Source of the DNA: Eledone cirrhosa
Taxonomy: Eukaryota
Direction of reading: 5' to 3'
NCBI GenBank assembly: GCA_964016885.1
Contig: CAXHJY010000103.1
Span: 6,432-70,431 of the forward strand
Length of the DNA: 64,000 nucleotides
Both the position numbers and the translations under genes were made by a program. A model generated the notes under the pieces. That model made no database searches and was not told where the DNA came from. It saw only the letters and a list, made by a program, of their open reading frames with translations. Positions 31,095-38,941 of the stretch are shown one piece after another. The first letter of the stretch is position 1; the number at the start of each line of letters is the position of its first letter.

Positions 31095-31670
31095 GTAATA
31101 ATAATAATAATAATGAAAAGGATTGTGTACAATACTCAGGTGCACTACAACTCATCAAAAGTGTATGTATAGTACATAGAATAATTGTTTCTATTGGCAC
31201 AAGGCCAGCAATTAACCAGTACATTACTGGTACTTTATTTTATCGACCCCGTAAGGATGAAAGGCAAAGTTAACCTCGGCGGGATTTAAACTCAGCCAAG
31301 GTTAACTTTGCCTTTCATCCTTAGAATAATGTACAAATGTCAGGAAAGGGAACAGTGTATGAGTCACGATATACATGTATGCGTGTGTATGGAGGGGGGA
31401 TATTAGGTGTAATATTGGTGAATTTTAGGAAGCATGGAAGTTTTGAAGGATGCAGTGTCTCGACAGCTAGCAACTGATGCAGGTAGTTTGTTCCATGCTT
31501 CAGTAACTCTGAGCATGAAAAAATGTTTCCGAAAGTAATACGAGCTTTAATGTTTTCTGATTTTGTAAGCATGTCCATGGGTGTTAGACACATGGAATTC
31601 AAAAAGGTGCCCAGGGTTGTTGTTGGCAAGATGGTTAATCATTTTATAGGTCTGTACCAAGTCAGTTGCC
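31095..31670 (-). mobile_element. CR1 3' fragment containing a 5'-inverted SINE A (31182-31321)
   Basis: CR1 3' end match; TAGAATAA duplicated around the SINE; 31296-31321 is in the opposite orientation. Confidence 0.85.
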
Positions 31671-31792
31671 AAAAACAAAAGAAAACAAAGAAGTTAACTT
31701 TATTATAATTTATAAATTTTAGATAAAGACTTCATCTGTGATCATCTGTTGAAACTGAAACTGTTACCTGATGGTAGAGTCTGGATAGCCAT

Positions 31793-32848
31793 TTTATACA
31801 CACAGCATATATACCTTTATACAACACACACACACTATATATATATACCTTTATATACACACACATACACACAGCATATATACCTTTATACACACACACA
31901 CACACTATATATATATACCTTTATATACACACACATACACACAGCATATATACCTTTATACACACACACACACACTATATATATATACCTTTATATACAC
32001 ACACATACACACAGCATATATACCTTTATACACATACACACACTATATATACCTTTATATACACATACTCACACACAGCATATATACCTTTATACACACA
32101 CACACACTATATATATACCTTTATATACACACACATACACACAGCATATATACCTTTATACACACACACACACTATATATATATACCTTTATATACACAT
32201 ACTCACACACAGCATATATACCTTTATACACACACACACACTATATATATATATACCTTTATATACACACACATACACACAGCATATATACCTTTATACA
32301 CACACACACACTATATATATATACCTTTATATACACACACATACACACAGCATATATACCTTTATACACACACACACACTATATATATATACCTTTATAT
32401 ACACATACTCACACACAGCATATATACCTTTATACACACACACACACTATATATACCTTTATATACACATACTCACACACAGCATATATACCTTTATACA
32501 CACACACTATATATATATATATATATATACCTTTATATACACACACATACACACAGCATATATACCTTTATACACACACACACACTATATATATATATAC
32601 CTTTATATACACATACTCACACACAGCATATATACCTTTATACACACACACACACTATATATATATACCTTTATATACACATACTCTCACACAGCATATA
32701 TACCTTTATACACACACACACACACTATATATACCTTTATATACACATACTCACACACAGCATATATACCTTTATACACACACACTATATATACCTTTAT
32801 ATACACATACTCACACACAGCATATATACCTTTATACACACACACACA
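31793..32848. repeat. Compound (CA)/(TA) minisatellite
   Basis: Units cacagcatatatacctttata(ca)n c(ta)n cctttata; same array resumes at 37781-37940. Confidence 0.95.
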
Positions 32849-35800
32849 TTCATCATCATCACCGTTTTACGTCCGTTCTTCCACGCTAGCATGGGTTAGA
32901 CGGGTTGTCCTGTTGTGGGCAGTGTCTGGTCGGCTGACCATGCCTTGCTCATACAGGAACTGATCTGGCTTGATTTCTACAGCTGGATGCCCTTCCTAAC
33001 ACCAACCTCATTTACAGTGAGTGCTGGGTGCTTTTTCGTGGCGCCTACACGTCCACTTTACAGTGTGGGCTGGGTGCTTTTTTGCCGTGGCACCTCCACG
33101 GCCACTTTGCGGTGGAGGGGGGGGGGGGCATATTGTTTATATGCTTCAGCATGTACCCATGGGAGGTCGGGTACCCTGTATTACTGCGTGACGCCAGAAG
33201 TCACGGTCGTGTGTCATTGACTTTGAGAGGTGTAGTTGGGTAAGGTCGGCTTTTATCACCTCATCCCAAGTCATCTTGGGTCTCCCCACTCCGCGGTTTC
33301 CATCAACTTCTAGTGCTCTGCACCTTTTTATGCAGCTGTCATCCTTCATACGCATCACATGTCCATACCAGCGTAACCGCCTCTCCTGCACGCAGCATTT
33401 GATTCCTCTTATGCTCAGTCTCTCTCTCAATTCCTTTATGCTTTGTCGTTCACGTATATTACTGTTACACATCCATCGGAGCATGCAGGCTTCGTTTCTC
33501 TCTAATCTACGTAAGTCTTCCACCTTCAGCGCCCAGGTCTCACTACCATGCAACATCGCTGTTCGGATACACGCATCATACAGTCTGCCTTTCATTCTGA
33601 GGGAGAAGCCTTTTGCAGCTAGCAGTGGTAGTAGTTCCCTAAACTTCTTCCATCCCGTTCTTACCCTAGTTATTGTACTTTCTGAGCACCCACCTCCGTT
33701 GCTAATTCGGTCACCTAGGTAGCAGAAGCTGTCTACTGTTTCTACAGGGCCCTCCCAGAGATTGGTGGTACTTGTTTCCTGTGGCTGTTTGCTTGCTGTT
33801 TCAGCACAGCTGCTGCATGTGAATCCTACATTCTTAATTAAGCTTCCTGAGATCCCGCTACATCTCTTGTGTACCCATTGTTTGCATTTGGGGCAGAGAA
33901 TGGAGTTTCTACCTACACCTTTCCTACATACTGAGCAAGGCCATTTCCCTGAGGGGATCTGGGTTCTGTTTTCTCGTCTACTTACAAGGACCTTAGTCTT
34001 TGTCATGTTGACTTTGAGACCCTTTCTCTCTAGTCCCTGCTTCCAGATTTGGAATTTATTCTCTAGTTCTACCATAGATTCAGCTATGAGTGCGAGGTCA
34101 TCAGCATACAGGAGTTCCCATGGGCATCCGGTCTTAAACTCCTCCGTTATTGCCTGCAGGACTATGATGAACAGGAGAGGGCTAAGAACAGAGCCCTGGT
34201 GGACCCCAACCTGTACGCTAAATTCCTCGCTATACTCATTGCCAATCCTAACTTTGCTGACTGCTCCCCTATACATGGCTTGTACCGCTTTCACAAGCCA
34301 TTCATCTACTCCTAGTTTTCTAAGAGCCCACCAGATTACTGCACGTGGAACTCTGTCAAAGGCTTTCTCAAGGTCGACAAATGCCAAGTAGAGTGGCTTA
34401 CTTTTAGCTAGGTACTTTTCCTGTAATTGCCTCACAAGGAAGAGGGCATCAGTGGTGCCTTTCCCTGGTACAAACCCAAATTGCATCTCGTCTATATTCA
34501 CCCGGTCCCTAATCAGCTGTGCTATAACTCTTTCTGTTACTTTCATGACCTGGTCCATCAACTTTATACCTCTATAGTTTCCTCTATCTAGTGCATCGCC
34601 TTTACCTTTGTAGCAGTTGACAATGATGCTACTGCACCAATCTTTTGGTATGGCCCCCTCTAGTATTACCTGGTTAACGATACGTGTGGTTATAGTGTGA
34701 CCTACAGACCCAGATGCCTTCAGCATCTCGGCAGCTATACCCGATGGACCGGTTGCCTTCCCTATCTTCATATCTCTGATTGCCTTACTTACTACGCTGC
34801 CGCTGACTTGTACTGCTGGTCCCTCTATAGGGTCTACGTGGGGTAGGGTCTCTTCTTCCCATGCATTCTCCTCATTTAGTAATCTATCATAATGACTCTT
34901 CCATGCATCTTTCTTCTCAGCACTTGTGAGGGTAAGCTCACCTTTATCATTCCGGATACACTTCTCTCCAATGACATCACAACTATCTCTGACACACTGC
35001 CTCGCAATCTTGAATACCTCCTGTTTCTGGTCCTCACGTTGTAAAACATGCTTGAATTTTCTATCCTCTGCTTCCCTCCTAGCTAAGTATACTTGTCGCC
35101 TAGCTTCCCTCTTGGTCTCTATGTAATGTACCCTGCTCCCCCCGTTCTTCCATTCTTTCCATGCCTGTCTCTTGGCCTTGACTGCTTCATCTACCTTATT
35201 GTTCCACCACCAAGTCACTCTCCTCCTGCTTGAGGTCTTACTCCAGCCACAAACCTCATCCGTCGCCTCTAGTAAGTTATTTTTTAGGAACTCCCAGTTC
35301 TCTTCTACGTTAAATGTCTCTATCTGTTCTTCTTTACTGTCGTAGGCGTTGAGTAAAATATCTTTAAATCTGTTACTGGTTGAGGGGACTTTCAGCTTCC
35401 AGATCTTTCTTCTCCAGGTTGGCCTCTGTTTCAGGGCTTGTCTAGTTCTGACCGTGAGGTCGCTGACAACTAAGCTATGTTGGGATGTACATTCCTCACT
35501 AGGGAAGGCTTTTGTGTTTACGACCGTCCATCTGTCACGTCCTCTGATGAGGATAAAATCTAACTGACTAGAGTGCTCCCCTGATCTATAGGTGATCAGG
35601 TGGTTGTCGGGTTTTTTAAAGTTTGTGTTACATATCGACATGTCATTGGCGTCGCAGAATTCTAGAAGTCTGAATCCTTCCTCATTCCTTGTGCCAACTC
35701 CATGGCCTCCATGTACTCTATTGAAGCCGTCGCAGTGTTTACCTACGTGTCCGTTAAAATCTCCTGCAATGATTAGGAAGTCCTTGTCGTCTGTTAGAGC

Positions 35801-36660
35801 AGTAGTGTGTATTAGGGACTCGTAAAACCTATCCTTAAGTTCGTCTGGCAGCCCCGATTGGGGTGCGTAAGCTGATATTATTGTGGTAATTGTCTTATTC
35901 AGGACTAGTCTAAGTTTAATGATTCTTGCATTTACCCTGTACACTGAGATTACTTTATCTACCCACTTGTCAGCTAATAGTATACCTACACCACCCATCC
36001 CATCGTCATTTCCCACCCAGAAAAATTTGTAGCACTGGCTTTTTCCTACAAGGACTCTAGCAGACCCTCCTCTCCATCTAGTCTCTTGCACACAGCATAC
36101 ATCAACTTCCTTTCGCTCTAGCATTTCTACGATTTCTCCTGCTCTTCCTTTCATTGAGCCTACATTGATGGTACCAACTCGGAGTTTTGGGCATTTGTCG
36201 ACACTCGTAGGGGAGGGTCTCTGGGTTGGCGCTTCACGTGGGTGCTTGGTAGCTCGCAGATTCATATTTCATCTATTGATTCAGAGTTGCTCGTGTATTC
36301 CCAGCTCATCCATCCATAACGGTGGGAAAATTGAGGGCTAGAAGAACAGTGGTGGTGGGGTAATGGCAGGGTGTGTTGGGATGCGCCAGAGGAGGAGAGA
36401 GTTAGTTAGGCAGGTAGTAGCAGCAGCAGTGGAAATGGCATGCTAGGTTTGATTGGTCGAATAGACTATGGTGGTGTGTGGGGGTGGGGGGGAGGGAAAT
36501 TGTGAGGTAGGAACTGAGGGTCGCATGGTAAATATCCAAGTTAATACTACATCAGTAAAATTAACAATAATAACGTCATGAAAAAAACTACTAAGAGAAA
36601 CCCTAGAAAATTTATCGCTAATACAGCAGGGAAAATTTAACGCTAATACAGCAGGGAACA
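32849..36660 (-). mobile_element. Near full-length RTE-clade LINE
   Basis: Intact ORF, 5' UTR, 3' UTR and (TGA)n tail; 5' boundary approximate. Confidence 0.9.
33146..36265 (-). CDS. RTE LINE polyprotein: APE endonuclease + reverse transcriptase + PHD-like Cys/His finger (1039 aa)
   Basis: GTINV, VQETRW, SAYAPQ, GDFNGHVG, FVDLEKAFD, QGSVLSP, YADD, CSVC..CPKC..WVHKRC..CSSC; no stops. Confidence 0.95.
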   Translation of the reverse strand: MNLRATKHPREAPTQRPSPTSVDKCPKLRVGTINVGSMKGRAGEIVEMLERKEVDVCCVQETRWRGGSARVLVGKSQCYKFFWVGNDDGMGGVGILLADKWVDKVISVYRVNARIIKLRLVLNKTITTIISAYAPQSGLPDELKDRFYESLIHTTALTDDKDFLIIAGDFNGHVGKHCDGFNRVHGGHGVGTRNEEGFRLLEFCDANDMSICNTNFKKPDNHLITYRSGEHSSQLDFILIRGRDRWTVVNTKAFPSEECTSQHSLVVSDLTVRTRQALKQRPTWRRKIWKLKVPSTSNRFKDILLNAYDSKEEQIETFNVEENWEFLKNNLLEATDEVCGWSKTSSRRRVTWWWNNKVDEAVKAKRQAWKEWKNGGSRVHYIETKREARRQVYLARREAEDRKFKHVLQREDQKQEVFKIARQCVRDSCDVIGEKCIRNDKGELTLTSAEKKDAWKSHYDRLLNEENAWEEETLPHVDPIEGPAVQVSGSVVSKAIRDMKIGKATGPSGIAAEMLKASGSVGHTITTRIVNQVILEGAIPKDWCSSIIVNCYKGKGDALDRGNYRGIKLMDQVMKVTERVIAQLIRDRVNIDEMQFGFVPGKGTTDALFLVRQLQEKYLAKSKPLYLAFVDLEKAFDRVPRAVIWWALRKLGVDEWLVKAVQAMYRGAVSKVRIGNEYSEEFSVQVGVHQGSVLSPLLFIIVLQAITEEFKTGCPWELLYADDLALIAESMVELENKFQIWKQGLERKGLKVNMTKTKVLVSRRENRTQIPSGKWPCSVCRKGVGRNSILCPKCKQWVHKRCSGISGSLIKNVGFTCSSCAETASKQPQETSTTNLWEGPVETVDSFCYLGDRISNGGGCSESTITRVRTGWKKFRELLPLLAAKGFSLRMKGRLYDACIRTAMLHGSETWALKVEDLRRLERNEACMLRWMCNSNIRERQSIKELRERLSIRGIKCCVQERRLRWYGHVMRMKDDSCIKRCRALEVDGNRGVGRPKMTWDEVIKADLTQLHLSKSMTHDRDFWRHAVIQGTRPPMGTC

Positions 36661-37777
36661 TCATAATAATATAATAATGAACATTATAATTATATAATAA
36701 TGAAATTATTGTGTACAGTGCTCAGGTGCACTACAACTCGTCAAAGGTGTATGTATAGTACATAGAATAATTGTTTCCACCTTTGGCACAAGACCAGTAA
36801 TCACCCCAGTGCACCACTGGCAACCCACCCCATCGACCCCGTAAGAATGAATGGCAAAGTTAACCTCGGCAGGACTCAAACTCAGATCAGAAAGGGACGT
36901 AACTCTGTGCTGCAAATCATGCTATCCGACCCTCCACCGACACCGCCAAATGTCAGGGAAGTGAATAGTGTATGAGTCATGATATACATGTGTGCATGTG
37001 TATAGAGGGGGAATATTAGATGTAGTGTTGGTGAATCTCAGGAAGCATGGAGGTTTTAAAGGATGCAGTGTCTTGACAGCTAACAACTGATGCAGGTAGT
37101 TTGTTCCATGCTTCAGTAACTCTGAGCGTGAAAAAATGTTTCCAAGTCATGGGAGCTGTGCTGTTTTCTGACTTTGTGGGCATGTCCACGTGTGTTAGAC
37201 ACATGGAAATCAAAAAGGTACTCAGGGTTGTTGTTGGCAAGATGGTTAATAATTTTGTGGGTGTTTACCAAGTCAGTTGCCAGACGTCGGAGCTTCAATG
37301 TATCCATGCCCAGGGAAGCAAGGCGTTCAGAGTATGGTAGATGCCTGATGGAGGGTATTCGCTTGGTTGCACATCTCTGAACAGTTTCCAGGCGGTCAAT
37401 GTTCTGAGCAAGATAGGGGTTCCAGACTGGTGATGCAAATTCTAAGTGTGGCCGCACCATAGCCATGTACAGCTTTAAATAGATAGCTGGAGAGCAGCTG
37501 ACAAAGGTCTTGCTGAGTGATGCTAAGATACCCTCGGCTCTCATGACAATTTTAGAGACGTGCTTCGTCCAATGCAAATCGCTGCTGACAGTAATGCCCA
37601 GGTCACGTTCACAAGAAGACTTCTTGATATTAGTGTTGTGGAGGGAGTATGTGGACGCTGGGTTTTCTACTCCCAAAATGAATGATGATACACTTGTCCA
37701 CAGCTAGCTTGAGTTGCCAATCTGTGATCCATTGTTGCATTGTGTCCAGATTGCAGGCAAGATCTAGTGTTCAGGAT
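36661..37777 (-). mobile_element. CR1 3' fragment
   Basis: ERDLGITV, VRPHLEFASPVWNP, LETVQR; (ATT)n tail. Confidence 0.9.
36768..36950 (-). mobile_element. SINE family A copy with A-to-G hypermutation
   Basis: gcaccactggcaaccccacccatcg versus consensus gcattactggtactttattttatcg; ctccaccgacaccgcc versus ctctaccgatactgcc. Confidence 0.85.
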
Positions 37778-38941
37778 CTGCATATACACACACACTATAT
37801 ACACCTTTATATACACATACACACATCATATATACCTTTATATACACACATCATATTACCTTTATATATACACACACACACACCATATATATACCTTTAT
37901 ATACATACTCATCATATATACCTTTATATATACATCATATTTACCAGTATACACCCATTTGAAGTTGATAAAAAAAGTACCAGTTTAGTACTGGGCTGAT
38001 TCTTCTTCTATATCTCTTTCTCACTTCCATTTATTCACTTTCTATCTTTCTCTGGAAGAAATCTGCTGTATTTGGACCAGGAGAGGGATGGGCTCCGTCA
38101 GGTTTAAAAATGCCCAAGAAACGCTGTATATCAATTCGGTGCCACTACAACTCCCTGAGGAGTTATGAGACCATGCATGCATTCATATATGTGTGTCCAA
38201 CCCTTGCTTGCAGGGAAAATGGATAATAAATCATACAACACATTGTATATCAGAAATTTAATGTAAATGTAACTACACTTTTAAAATTATAAGCCTTGCT
38301 GTGAAAAGAATGGAGTGCAAACATTTTCGTTTATTTTCTGTGTACACAGGAAAACACGAGATATTACCTTTAGACATTTTAGAGATTGCTTCCCCATCAG
38401 AAAATATCTACCCTTATGATTTTGCCAGCAGCTTATAGCAATTGCTATTTATATCAAGCAGGATGCAGAACTTAACTGAAATGTAAAGATGGAATAATAG
38501 AAAGTGTGTTTACACTTCATTCTTTTCGCAGTAAGACTTATTAAAACTGCATTTTTTCTGTGTTAATATGAAAGTCAGAGTACCAACATGTTTTATGACC
38601 AACATCATCATCGTTTTATGTCGGTTTTCTACCTTGATATGGTTAGGATGATATCTAAGACTAGATAAGTTGGATGACCACATCCTGCTCATACATTCCA
38701 ATTTGGCATGGTTTCTACAGCTGGAGGCCTTTCCTAATGCCAACTACTTTACAATGTGAACTGGGTACATTTTATCATGGCACCAGCACTACCACTTTAC
38801 AGTGTATACTGGGTGTATTTAATCATGATTCTGGCAGTATCACTTTACAGAATGAACAAGGAGCATTCTATTGTGGCACCACTGTTACCAAACACACATT
38901 AATCAGAGGAGGAGGAGGAGGAGGATAAATTAAATACTTAC

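What the first reader, a model, noticed from the sequence alone, without database searches (positions are those of the whole stretch)
36768..36950. Genomic SINE copy that looks like a retrotransposed, ADAR hyper-edited RNA
Seen: against sister copies (5333, 19026, 51069) this copy has about 17 T-to-C changes on the + strand in about 180 nt (A-to-G on the SINE sense strand). They are clustered in runs, e.g. gcattactggtactttattttatcg becomes gcaccactggcaaccccacccatcg and ctctaccgatactgcc becomes ctccaccgacaccgcc. The changed A's have 5' neighbours U, A or once C, while A's preceded by G are untouched. The flanking CR1 DNA lacks the bias. Known: ADARs disfavour a 5' G, reverse transcriptase reads inosine as G, and coleoids have very high A-to-I editing. 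Inference: a hyper-edited SINE transcript was reverse-transcribed in the germline, a route for RNA edits to become heritable DNA.
Basis: partly seen in the sequence, partly recalled or inferred. Interest (0 to 1): 0.9.

Follow-up and report, generated by a model that had tools for sequence, protein, structure and literature searches.

The report
RNA edits fossilised in genomic SINEs
This short jumping-DNA copy carries 19 A-to-G changes on one strand in the pattern left by the RNA-editing enzyme ADAR, and a dozen or more similar cases lie elsewhere in the assembly, likely because edited RNA was copied back into heritable DNA.

Summary
Observation confirmed. Against 29 nearest subfamily copies, 19 of 49 sense-strand A's are G, with 10 other changes; 0 of 8 A's after a G changed; the CR1 flank shows 2 of 177. 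None of 63 unselected copies exceeds 3 such changes. It is not a subfamily. Pattern searches found about 14-15 independent hyper-edited events among at least 181,881 copies. In inverted pairs both arms are A>G on the same strand, and in a five-copy hairpin retroposon the changes stay inside the paired part (8-14 of 22-24 inside, 0 of 16-18 outside). One edited SINE inside a LINE was amplified to 11 dispersed loci that share the edits, and younger unedited SINEs sit beside edited ones, so the phenomenon is old and inherited. Best reading: ADAR-edited RNA was reverse-transcribed into the germline. Weak points: this copy lies on a 70 kb unplaced contig, has no partner arm nearby, and was not recovered from public runs. 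Ten literature searches found no report of ADAR-edited SINEs fixed in an animal genome.

The parts
36766..36949 (-). tRNA-type SINE copy, about 10 nt short at its 5' end, with 19 of 49 sense-strand A's changed to G over nearly its whole length (36778-36944)
36814..36831 (-). Densest cluster: 10 of the 19 changes, including all seven A's of the two A runs
36872..36881 (-). B-box-like element carrying two A>G changes and a C>T at the CpG that one of them created (36877-36878); box consensus is recalled, not from a call
36937..36948 (-). A-box-like element carrying two A>G changes (36941, 36944); box consensus is recalled
36755..36771 (-). 3' junction: the SINE's (AAT)-type tail joins a CR1 3' UTR site that holds a SINE at 748 places in the assembly
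36945..36956 (-). 5' junction by microhomology with loss of about 5-6 target bases and no target-site duplication; the same junction occurs at L070 and L071 with unedited SINEs of another subfamily
36694..36765 (-). CR1-type LINE 3' end downstream of the SINE; no T>C (0 of 22)
36950..37780 (-). 5'-truncated CR1-type LINE body (C-terminal RT-protein remnant and 3' UTR); T>C at 2 of 155 in 36950-37500.

Best explanation
This SINE copy has 19 one-strand A>G changes that avoid a 5' G, and was likely made from an RNA that ADAR had hyper-edited and that a LINE reverse transcriptase then likely wrote into germline DNA, reading inosine as G. Shown: the substitution pattern; the insertion into a CR1 3' UTR site used by 748 SINEs; other loci where changes are limited to paired arms on one strand and are shared by dispersed, diverged copies. 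Inferred: (1) the RNA was paired along the whole SINE with an inverted copy, in the same long transcript or in trans, because changes run from one end to the other; (2) ADAR was the enzyme; (3) priming was at the SINE's own tail on this site and copying stopped about 10 nt before the 5' end, so the partner arm was not copied. I put this direct route at about 3:1 over carriage inside a CR1 transcript. Both promoter boxes are hit, so this copy is probably dead as a source.
For: 19 of 49 against 1 of 52 reverse-type changes; p=1.6e-15 against 63 unselected copies. 5' G changed in 0 of 39 sites over 7 sense arms, 0 of 32 without this copy, and 0 of 32 outside the columns fixed by the search patterns; ordinary copies show no such avoidance (14 of 305). 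G depletion upstream is the shared metazoan ADAR motif, and octopus has the strongest hyper-editing signal (PMC5625713, passages). Inverted pairs L033, L035/L040/L046/L083/L165 and L080 have both arms A>G on one strand. Sense arms of the five-copy group: 14/22, 11/24, 12/24, 11/24, 8/24 inside the paired part, 0 of 16-18 outside. That group has variable 5' ends and (TATG)n tails, the marks of retrotransposition. 11 of 13 loci with one LINE junction share 11 edited columns (G in 9-11 of 11) while their flanks are 77-94% alike, and the LINE's RT reads on the edited strand. Younger unedited SINEs lie beside edited ones (L165, L060, L064, L087, L090, L098). Unedited foldback pairs exist (L167; window 31180), so a DNA hairpin alone does not give the pattern.
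Against: No listed contig of 4 public runs spans the edited SINE, so this allele is unconfirmed; the runs may be other individuals or species. The window lies on a 70,431-base unplaced contig. This copy has no edited partner arm; nearest inverted copies are 4-8 kb away and unedited, so pairing is inferred for it. The antisense class has 14 of 84 5'-G sites changed, and outside the pattern columns its bias is weak (5 of 43, p=0.054). The 3' neighbour differs between classes (A in sense arms, G/C in antisense arms). The other events were found with patterns that demand A>G or T>C; no matching genome-wide search for C>T or G>A clusters was run. L088 is a full-length antisense-edited SINE with a 12-bp target duplication in non-repeat flanks, which a simple SINE-RNA route does not explain. 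No unedited parent of the hairpin group or of the LINE-borne SINE was found.
Confidence: 0.8

Rival explanations
1. Same enzyme, other route (a sub-case counted within the 0.8 above): the SINE was already in a CR1 source copy and was edited inside the CR1 transcript, which then retrotransposed whole; or cDNA from an edited RNA overwrote an existing SINE here by gene conversion.
For: SINE and CR1 are co-oriented, so the strand fits both. Host-carried editing is what the hairpin group, L108 and the LINE family show. The SINE's non-editing divergence (about 9 of 134) is not lower than its host's (14 of 443; p=0.08). L080 and L088 have edited arms 0.7-1.5 kb apart in non-repeat DNA.
Against: No parent with this junction and this subfamily among 9 junction hits; the two other exact ones are another subfamily. 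The site is an insertion hotspot: 748 SINEs, with varied 5' junctions and subfamilies in the 30 examined.
Confidence: 0.2
2. Deamination on DNA: ADAR or another deaminase acting on the DNA strand of an RNA:DNA hybrid (R-loop or reverse-transcription intermediate), with no edited RNA template.
For: ADAR action on transcribed DNA has been proposed (PMC10209271, passages). cDNA-strand editing would give antisense A>G in normal insertions with target duplications, as at L088 and L108.
Against: cDNA editing predicts antisense A>G, whereas this copy is changed on the sense strand. A hybrid would not limit changes to the part paired with an inverted arm.
Confidence: 0.07
3. Assembly or sequencing artefact, or a somatic insertion, at this one locus.
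For: Small unplaced contig; no second copy of the flank; no read support found. Clustered same-type errors have entered reference genomes, though those were G>A in capillary traces (PMC2873906, passages).
Against: The same signature occurs on chromosome-scale contigs, is shared by 11 diverged LINE copies, and spares younger neighbours. The CR1 flanks of this copy are clean at 16 differences in 620 columns. One C>T sits at a CpG created by an edit (36877-36878), as expected after time in methylated DNA; a single site, weak evidence.
Confidence: 0.08
4. A burst of reverse-transcriptase error (nucleotide pool imbalance) during one insertion.
For: It would be one-strand and limited to the insert.
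Against: It does not predict confinement to paired arms within one insert (0 of 16-18 outside) or the ADAR-type 5'-G avoidance.
Confidence: 0.03
5. An ordinary subfamily, or chance accumulation of transitions.
For: The family has several subfamilies.
Against: Best other match is 84% among 40 scored of 3397 candidates, and none of the 29 fetched shares the C runs; the exact C-run pattern has 2 hits, the other a local duplication; p=1.6e-15 per copy.
Confidence: 0.01

Closest known systems
APOBEC-edited LTR retroelements in vertebrate genomes (Knisbacher and Levanon, PMC4866542; passages read)
   Same: A deaminase hypermutates a retroelement in one replication cycle and the product is fixed in the genome as a strand-biased cluster.
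   Different: That is G>A on the sense strand, made on cDNA, in LTR elements; their 19 invertebrate genomes were the negative control, and the text has no mention of ADAR. Here it is A>G, limited to paired RNA, in SINEs and LINEs.
ADAR1-type A-to-G clusters in integrated BLV proviruses (PMC8025556; passages read)
   Same: A>G clusters ascribed to ADAR are carried through reverse transcription into host DNA.
   Different: Those are somatic, viral and rare (three proviruses, about 70 bp). Here the substrates are endogenous non-LTR retroposons, and some edited copies were inherited and amplified.
ADAR hyper-editing of inverted SINE pairs in RNA (Porath et al., PMC5625713; passages read)
   Same: Substrate (inverted SINEs, CR1 3' ends), clustering and 5'-G depletion.
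   Different: It is measured as RNA against an unedited genome; here the changes are in the genome itself.
A>G substitution at edited sites explained by selection or directed mutation (PMC7186786; PMC10209271; passages read)
   Same: Genomic G at positions that ADAR edits.
   Different: Those are single-site statistical excesses. Here up to 20 sites changed together in one copy, pointing to a templated event.
Retroprocessing of C-to-U edited transcripts in plant organelles (recalled, no call)
   Same: Edited RNA is written back into DNA.
   Different: Other enzyme, base change, compartment and substrate.

Membership tests
ADAR hyper-editing footprint | Dense, one-directional A>G cluster on one strand | tested here: met
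   19 of 49 against 1 of 52; null maximum 3
ADAR hyper-editing footprint | Depletion of G 5' of the changed A | tested here: met
   0 of 8 here, p=0.016; 0 of 39 in 7 sense arms, 14 of 84 in 15 antisense arms
ADAR hyper-editing footprint | 3' neighbour preference (A in invertebrates, per PMC5625713) | tested here: inconclusive
   Sense arms: 3' A 42 of 81, G 13 of 51; antisense arms: G 56 of 105, A 49 of 162
ADAR hyper-editing footprint | Changes confined to double-stranded RNA | tested here: inconclusive
   Met in the five-copy hairpin group, one event lineage; this copy has no partner arm to test, though changes stop at the SINE's ends
ADAR hyper-editing footprint | Both arms of an inverted pair changed on the same strand | tested here: met
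   3 of 3 sense/antisense pair events (L033, L035 group, L080). L095 has arms on opposite strands but lies in a 530-bp inverted duplication
ADAR hyper-editing footprint | Dependence on ADAR, or inosine in the family's RNA at these columns | not testable with these tools
   No raw RNA reads were laid; the one read call used contigs
Retrotransposed (TPRT) SINE insertion | 3' tail at the target, 5' truncation or microhomology join, empty sites in paralogues | tested here: met
   empty sites at window 57837/57841, 22888, 43476
Retrotransposed (TPRT) SINE insertion | Target-site duplication | tested here: not met
   About 5-6 target bases are lost instead; the same join recurs at L070 and L071
Germline-inherited edited retroelement | Present in independent DNA reads or individuals | tested here: inconclusive
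   Not recovered for this copy; inheritance is indicated for other events by shared edits in 11 diverged LINE copies
APOBEC DNA-edited retroelements | G>A hypermutation of the sense strand | tested here: not met
   One sense G>A (C>T on +) against 19 A>G

The most novel reading that the evidence does not exclude
In this animal, ADAR-edited RNA is repeatedly written back into the germline, not only as short SINEs but inside retroposons that go on to amplify the edits (11 LINE loci, 5 hairpin-retroposon loci with partly private edits from further rounds) and as tracts over 1 kb of ordinary intron-like RNA (L080, L088), possibly by in-place RNA-templated replacement. The genome then holds a datable fossil record of germline A-to-I editing and a direct, testable route from RNA editing to heritable A>G change.
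Probability: 0.45. Interest if true: 0.9.

Novelty: new variant of a known kind. Interest (0 to 1): 0.74.

Why it matters
Whether RNA edits can become inherited DNA changes is an open question; excess A>G at edited sites is usually put down to selection (PMC7186786) or argued from indirect evidence (PMC10209271). These loci give sequence-level cases in which many edits arrived at once, respected RNA pairing, and were then inherited and amplified. They offer an ADAR counterpart to APOBEC-edited retroelements, a record of ADAR activity and motif in germline cells, and a simple scan that can be run on any genome. The scale is small: about 14-15 events found among at least 181,881 copies (a lower bound), all in non-coding repeats, so there is no evidence yet that it matters for protein recoding.

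Tried and rejected
Read confirmation: of 24 runs listed, the best held 0.53 of the words. Four were laid; the listed pieces were at most about 90 nt, none inside 36775-36945, and other repeat copies swamp the depth. The output warns that a hole proves nothing, so this is inconclusive. The second hit of the exact C-run pattern (L031) is a local duplication, not an edited copy. Of 27 hits, only 9 were edited SINEs (this copy, L033-35, L038, L040, L041, L046, L049); the rest were chance or local rearrangements. Of 30 loci fetched, L089 and L111 did not pass the outlier test; two more of its hits looked at later (L205, L206) did not pass either, and two were never fetched. L093 clustered with this copy by flank but is an independent unedited insertion at the same CR1 site beside an unrelated edited arm. 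L070 and L071 looked like unedited parents but are another subfamily. No allelic copy of the flank exists in the assembly. Rfam gave nothing above chance. Pfam gave no hit on the CR1 remnant. Earlier findings of this scan: none. No search for parent loci of L080 and L088 and no C>T or G>A control pattern search was run.

Full report
Observation. The window is G000:C130:6432-70431 of a 3.0 Gb assembly; the contig is 70,431 bases. At 36766-36949 lies the reverse complement of a tRNA-type SINE with at least 181,881 copies (exact 25-mer). Result: T>C at 19 of 49 T's, 10 other changes, and one ambiguous C at 36804. On the sense strand these are A>G with 5' neighbours A 9, U 8, C 2, G 0, against A 8, U 5, C 9, G 8 for unchanged A's (p=0.016). 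The CR1 flanks have T>C at 2 of 177 T's. In 63 unselected copies the maximum is 3 T>C and 5 A>G; this copy scores 17 of 39 conserved columns, p=1.6e-15. No sister shares the changes: the best other match is 84% among 40 scored of 3397 candidates.

Anatomy. The SINE sits in the 3' UTR of a 5'-truncated CR1-type LINE, co-oriented on the minus strand. Empty sites occur at window 57837/57841, 22888 and 43476. The site is a hotspot: 748 places have a SINE tail at this position, and the 30 examined vary in subfamily and 5' junction. This copy lacks about 10 nt at its 5' end and joins by microhomology with loss of 5-6 target bases. The same join occurs at L070 and L071, which are unedited and of another subfamily. 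Changes cover almost the whole SINE and hit both promoter-like boxes (box consensus recalled). One G>A on + (36878) is the decay of a CpG made by the change at 36877. No edited partner arm lies nearby.

It is not alone. Four patterns aimed at edited copies gave 27, 10, 4 and 36 hits against 5, 0, 0 and 0 for reversed controls. After alignment, 57 distinct arms passed an outlier test; further loci came. Grouping by flank gives about 14-15 independent events (my count): 4-5 solo sense copies including this one, 3 sense/antisense pair events, and about 7 antisense events. This is a lower bound; the pattern missed this very copy. The two strand classes were sought with different patterns, so their rates cannot be compared.

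Signature across events (one arm set per event). Sense arms: changed 27 of 56 after U, 44 of 85 after A, 12 of 44 after C, 0 of 39 after G; outside the columns fixed by the patterns, 0 of 32 after G (p=3e-4). Antisense arms: 79 of 133, 87 of 181, 16 of 110, 14 of 84; outside pattern columns the G bias is weak (5 of 43, p=0.054). Ordinary copies show no G avoidance. The 3' preference is inconsistent between classes.

Pairing. In L033 (three arms), L080 and the group L035/L040/L046/L083/L165, sense and antisense arms are A>G on the same genomic strand. The group is a short non-autonomous retroposon with variable 5' ends and (TATG)n tails that holds a head-to-head SINE pair folding into a long hairpin. 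In its full-length arm the changes fall at 14 of 22, 11 of 24, 12 of 24, 11 of 24 and 8 of 24 sites inside the paired part and at 0 of 16-18 outside. The five copies descend from one structure, so this is one lineage, not five tests. They share a core of sites and differ at many others, which fits further rounds of editing, but no unedited parent was found. Foldback pairs with no changes exist (L167; window 31180). The one opposite-strand pair, L095, lies in a 530-bp inverted duplication.

Inheritance. A LINE with RT on the edited strand (Pfam RVT_1; C-terminal motifs look like a restriction-like-endonuclease clade, recalled) carries an antisense edited SINE upstream of its ORF. Of 13 loci with that junction, 11 share 11 edited columns (G in 9-11 of 11) and 2 hold unedited SINEs of other subfamilies; flanks are 77-94% alike, median 86%. 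Younger unedited SINEs, one with a clear target duplication at L165, sit directly beside edited ones. Read-level or consensus errors would not give this.

Against. Four public runs laid on 36540-37140 gave no listed piece across the edited SINE; the runs held at most 0.53 of the words and may be other animals, so the allele is unconfirmed rather than refuted. The contig is unplaced and has no second copy in the assembly. L088 is a full-length antisense-edited SINE with its own target duplication in non-repeat DNA, with a second edited arm 0.7 kb away; L080 spans 1.5 kb of such DNA. These need a long carrier RNA, in-place conversion, or editing of the cDNA strand, and I could not separate these. 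No genome-wide control for C>T or G>A clusters was run.

Mechanism. Shown: pattern, insertion anatomy, same-strand and duplex-limited changes at other loci, sharing among diverged copies. Inferred: ADAR as the enzyme, a full-length partner for this copy, reverse transcription by LINE machinery in the germline. I give 0.8 to edited RNA written into the genome (direct insertion about 3:1 over carriage in CR1 or conversion), 0.08 to artefact or somatic origin of this copy, 0.07 to DNA-level deamination, 0.03 to RT error, 0.01 to subfamily or chance.

Literature. Ten full-text searches listed no paper reporting ADAR-edited SINE or LINE copies fixed in an animal genome; most subscription journals are not covered and I read no supplements, where negative controls of the APOBEC screens could bear on this. 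Passages only were read from PMC4866542 (APOBEC, LTRs, G>A, no mention of ADAR), PMC8025556 (ADAR-like clusters in somatic BLV proviruses), PMC5625713 (motif; octopus strongest hyper-editing), PMC7186786, PMC10209271, PMC5224506 (no editing found in 2.5 kb of ectopic human L1 RNA), PMC2873906 (a G>A sequencing artefact), and one reference line of PMC4189041. Verdict: a real feature of the assembly, a new variant of deaminase-edited retroelements, interest 0.74.

Noticed in passing
window 33149-36268, minus strand: An uninterrupted 1040-aa frame with endonuclease, RT and PHD-finger Pfam hits (RTE-like LINE, label recalled), directly downstream of the CR1 tail; a possibly active element.
   Followed up: partly
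window 31175-31330: Independent SINE insertion at the same CR1 site with a foldback (inverted) 5' end and a target duplication, unedited; shows how hairpin-forming SINEs arise.
   Followed up: partly
L071:1213-1462 (G000:C18 near 17,443,000): A CR1 3' end that is itself T>C-rich: 11 of 67 against 3 of 76 A>G, the highest of 77 CR1 pieces, later expanded into a 61-bp tandem array; suggests edited LINE RNA is also inserted.
   Followed up: partly
CR1 3' UTR site, 748 places in G000: A strong SINE insertion hotspot inside another retroelement; similar recurrent targets in the short retroposon (L108, L165) and in the LINE 5' region (L183, L185).
   Followed up: partly
L035, L040, L046, L083, L108, L125, L165: A non-autonomous retroposon of about 300 bp when empty, with variable 5' ends and (TATG)n tails; empty form at L125.
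   Followed up: partly
L080 / L202:3870-5445 and L088 / L195:4571-5617: Several edited SINE arms on one strand across 1-1.5 kb of non-repeat DNA, with no retroposon host seen; candidates for long retrocopies or in-place RNA-templated replacement.
   Followed up: partly
L095 / L196:4505-5849: A 530-bp inverted duplication (89% alike) with an edited SINE fragment in each arm around a 250-bp spacer.
   Followed up: no
window 31789-32856 and 37781-37958: A roughly 34-bp AT-rich tandem repeat follows both SINE-bearing CR1 copies of the window.
   Followed up: no
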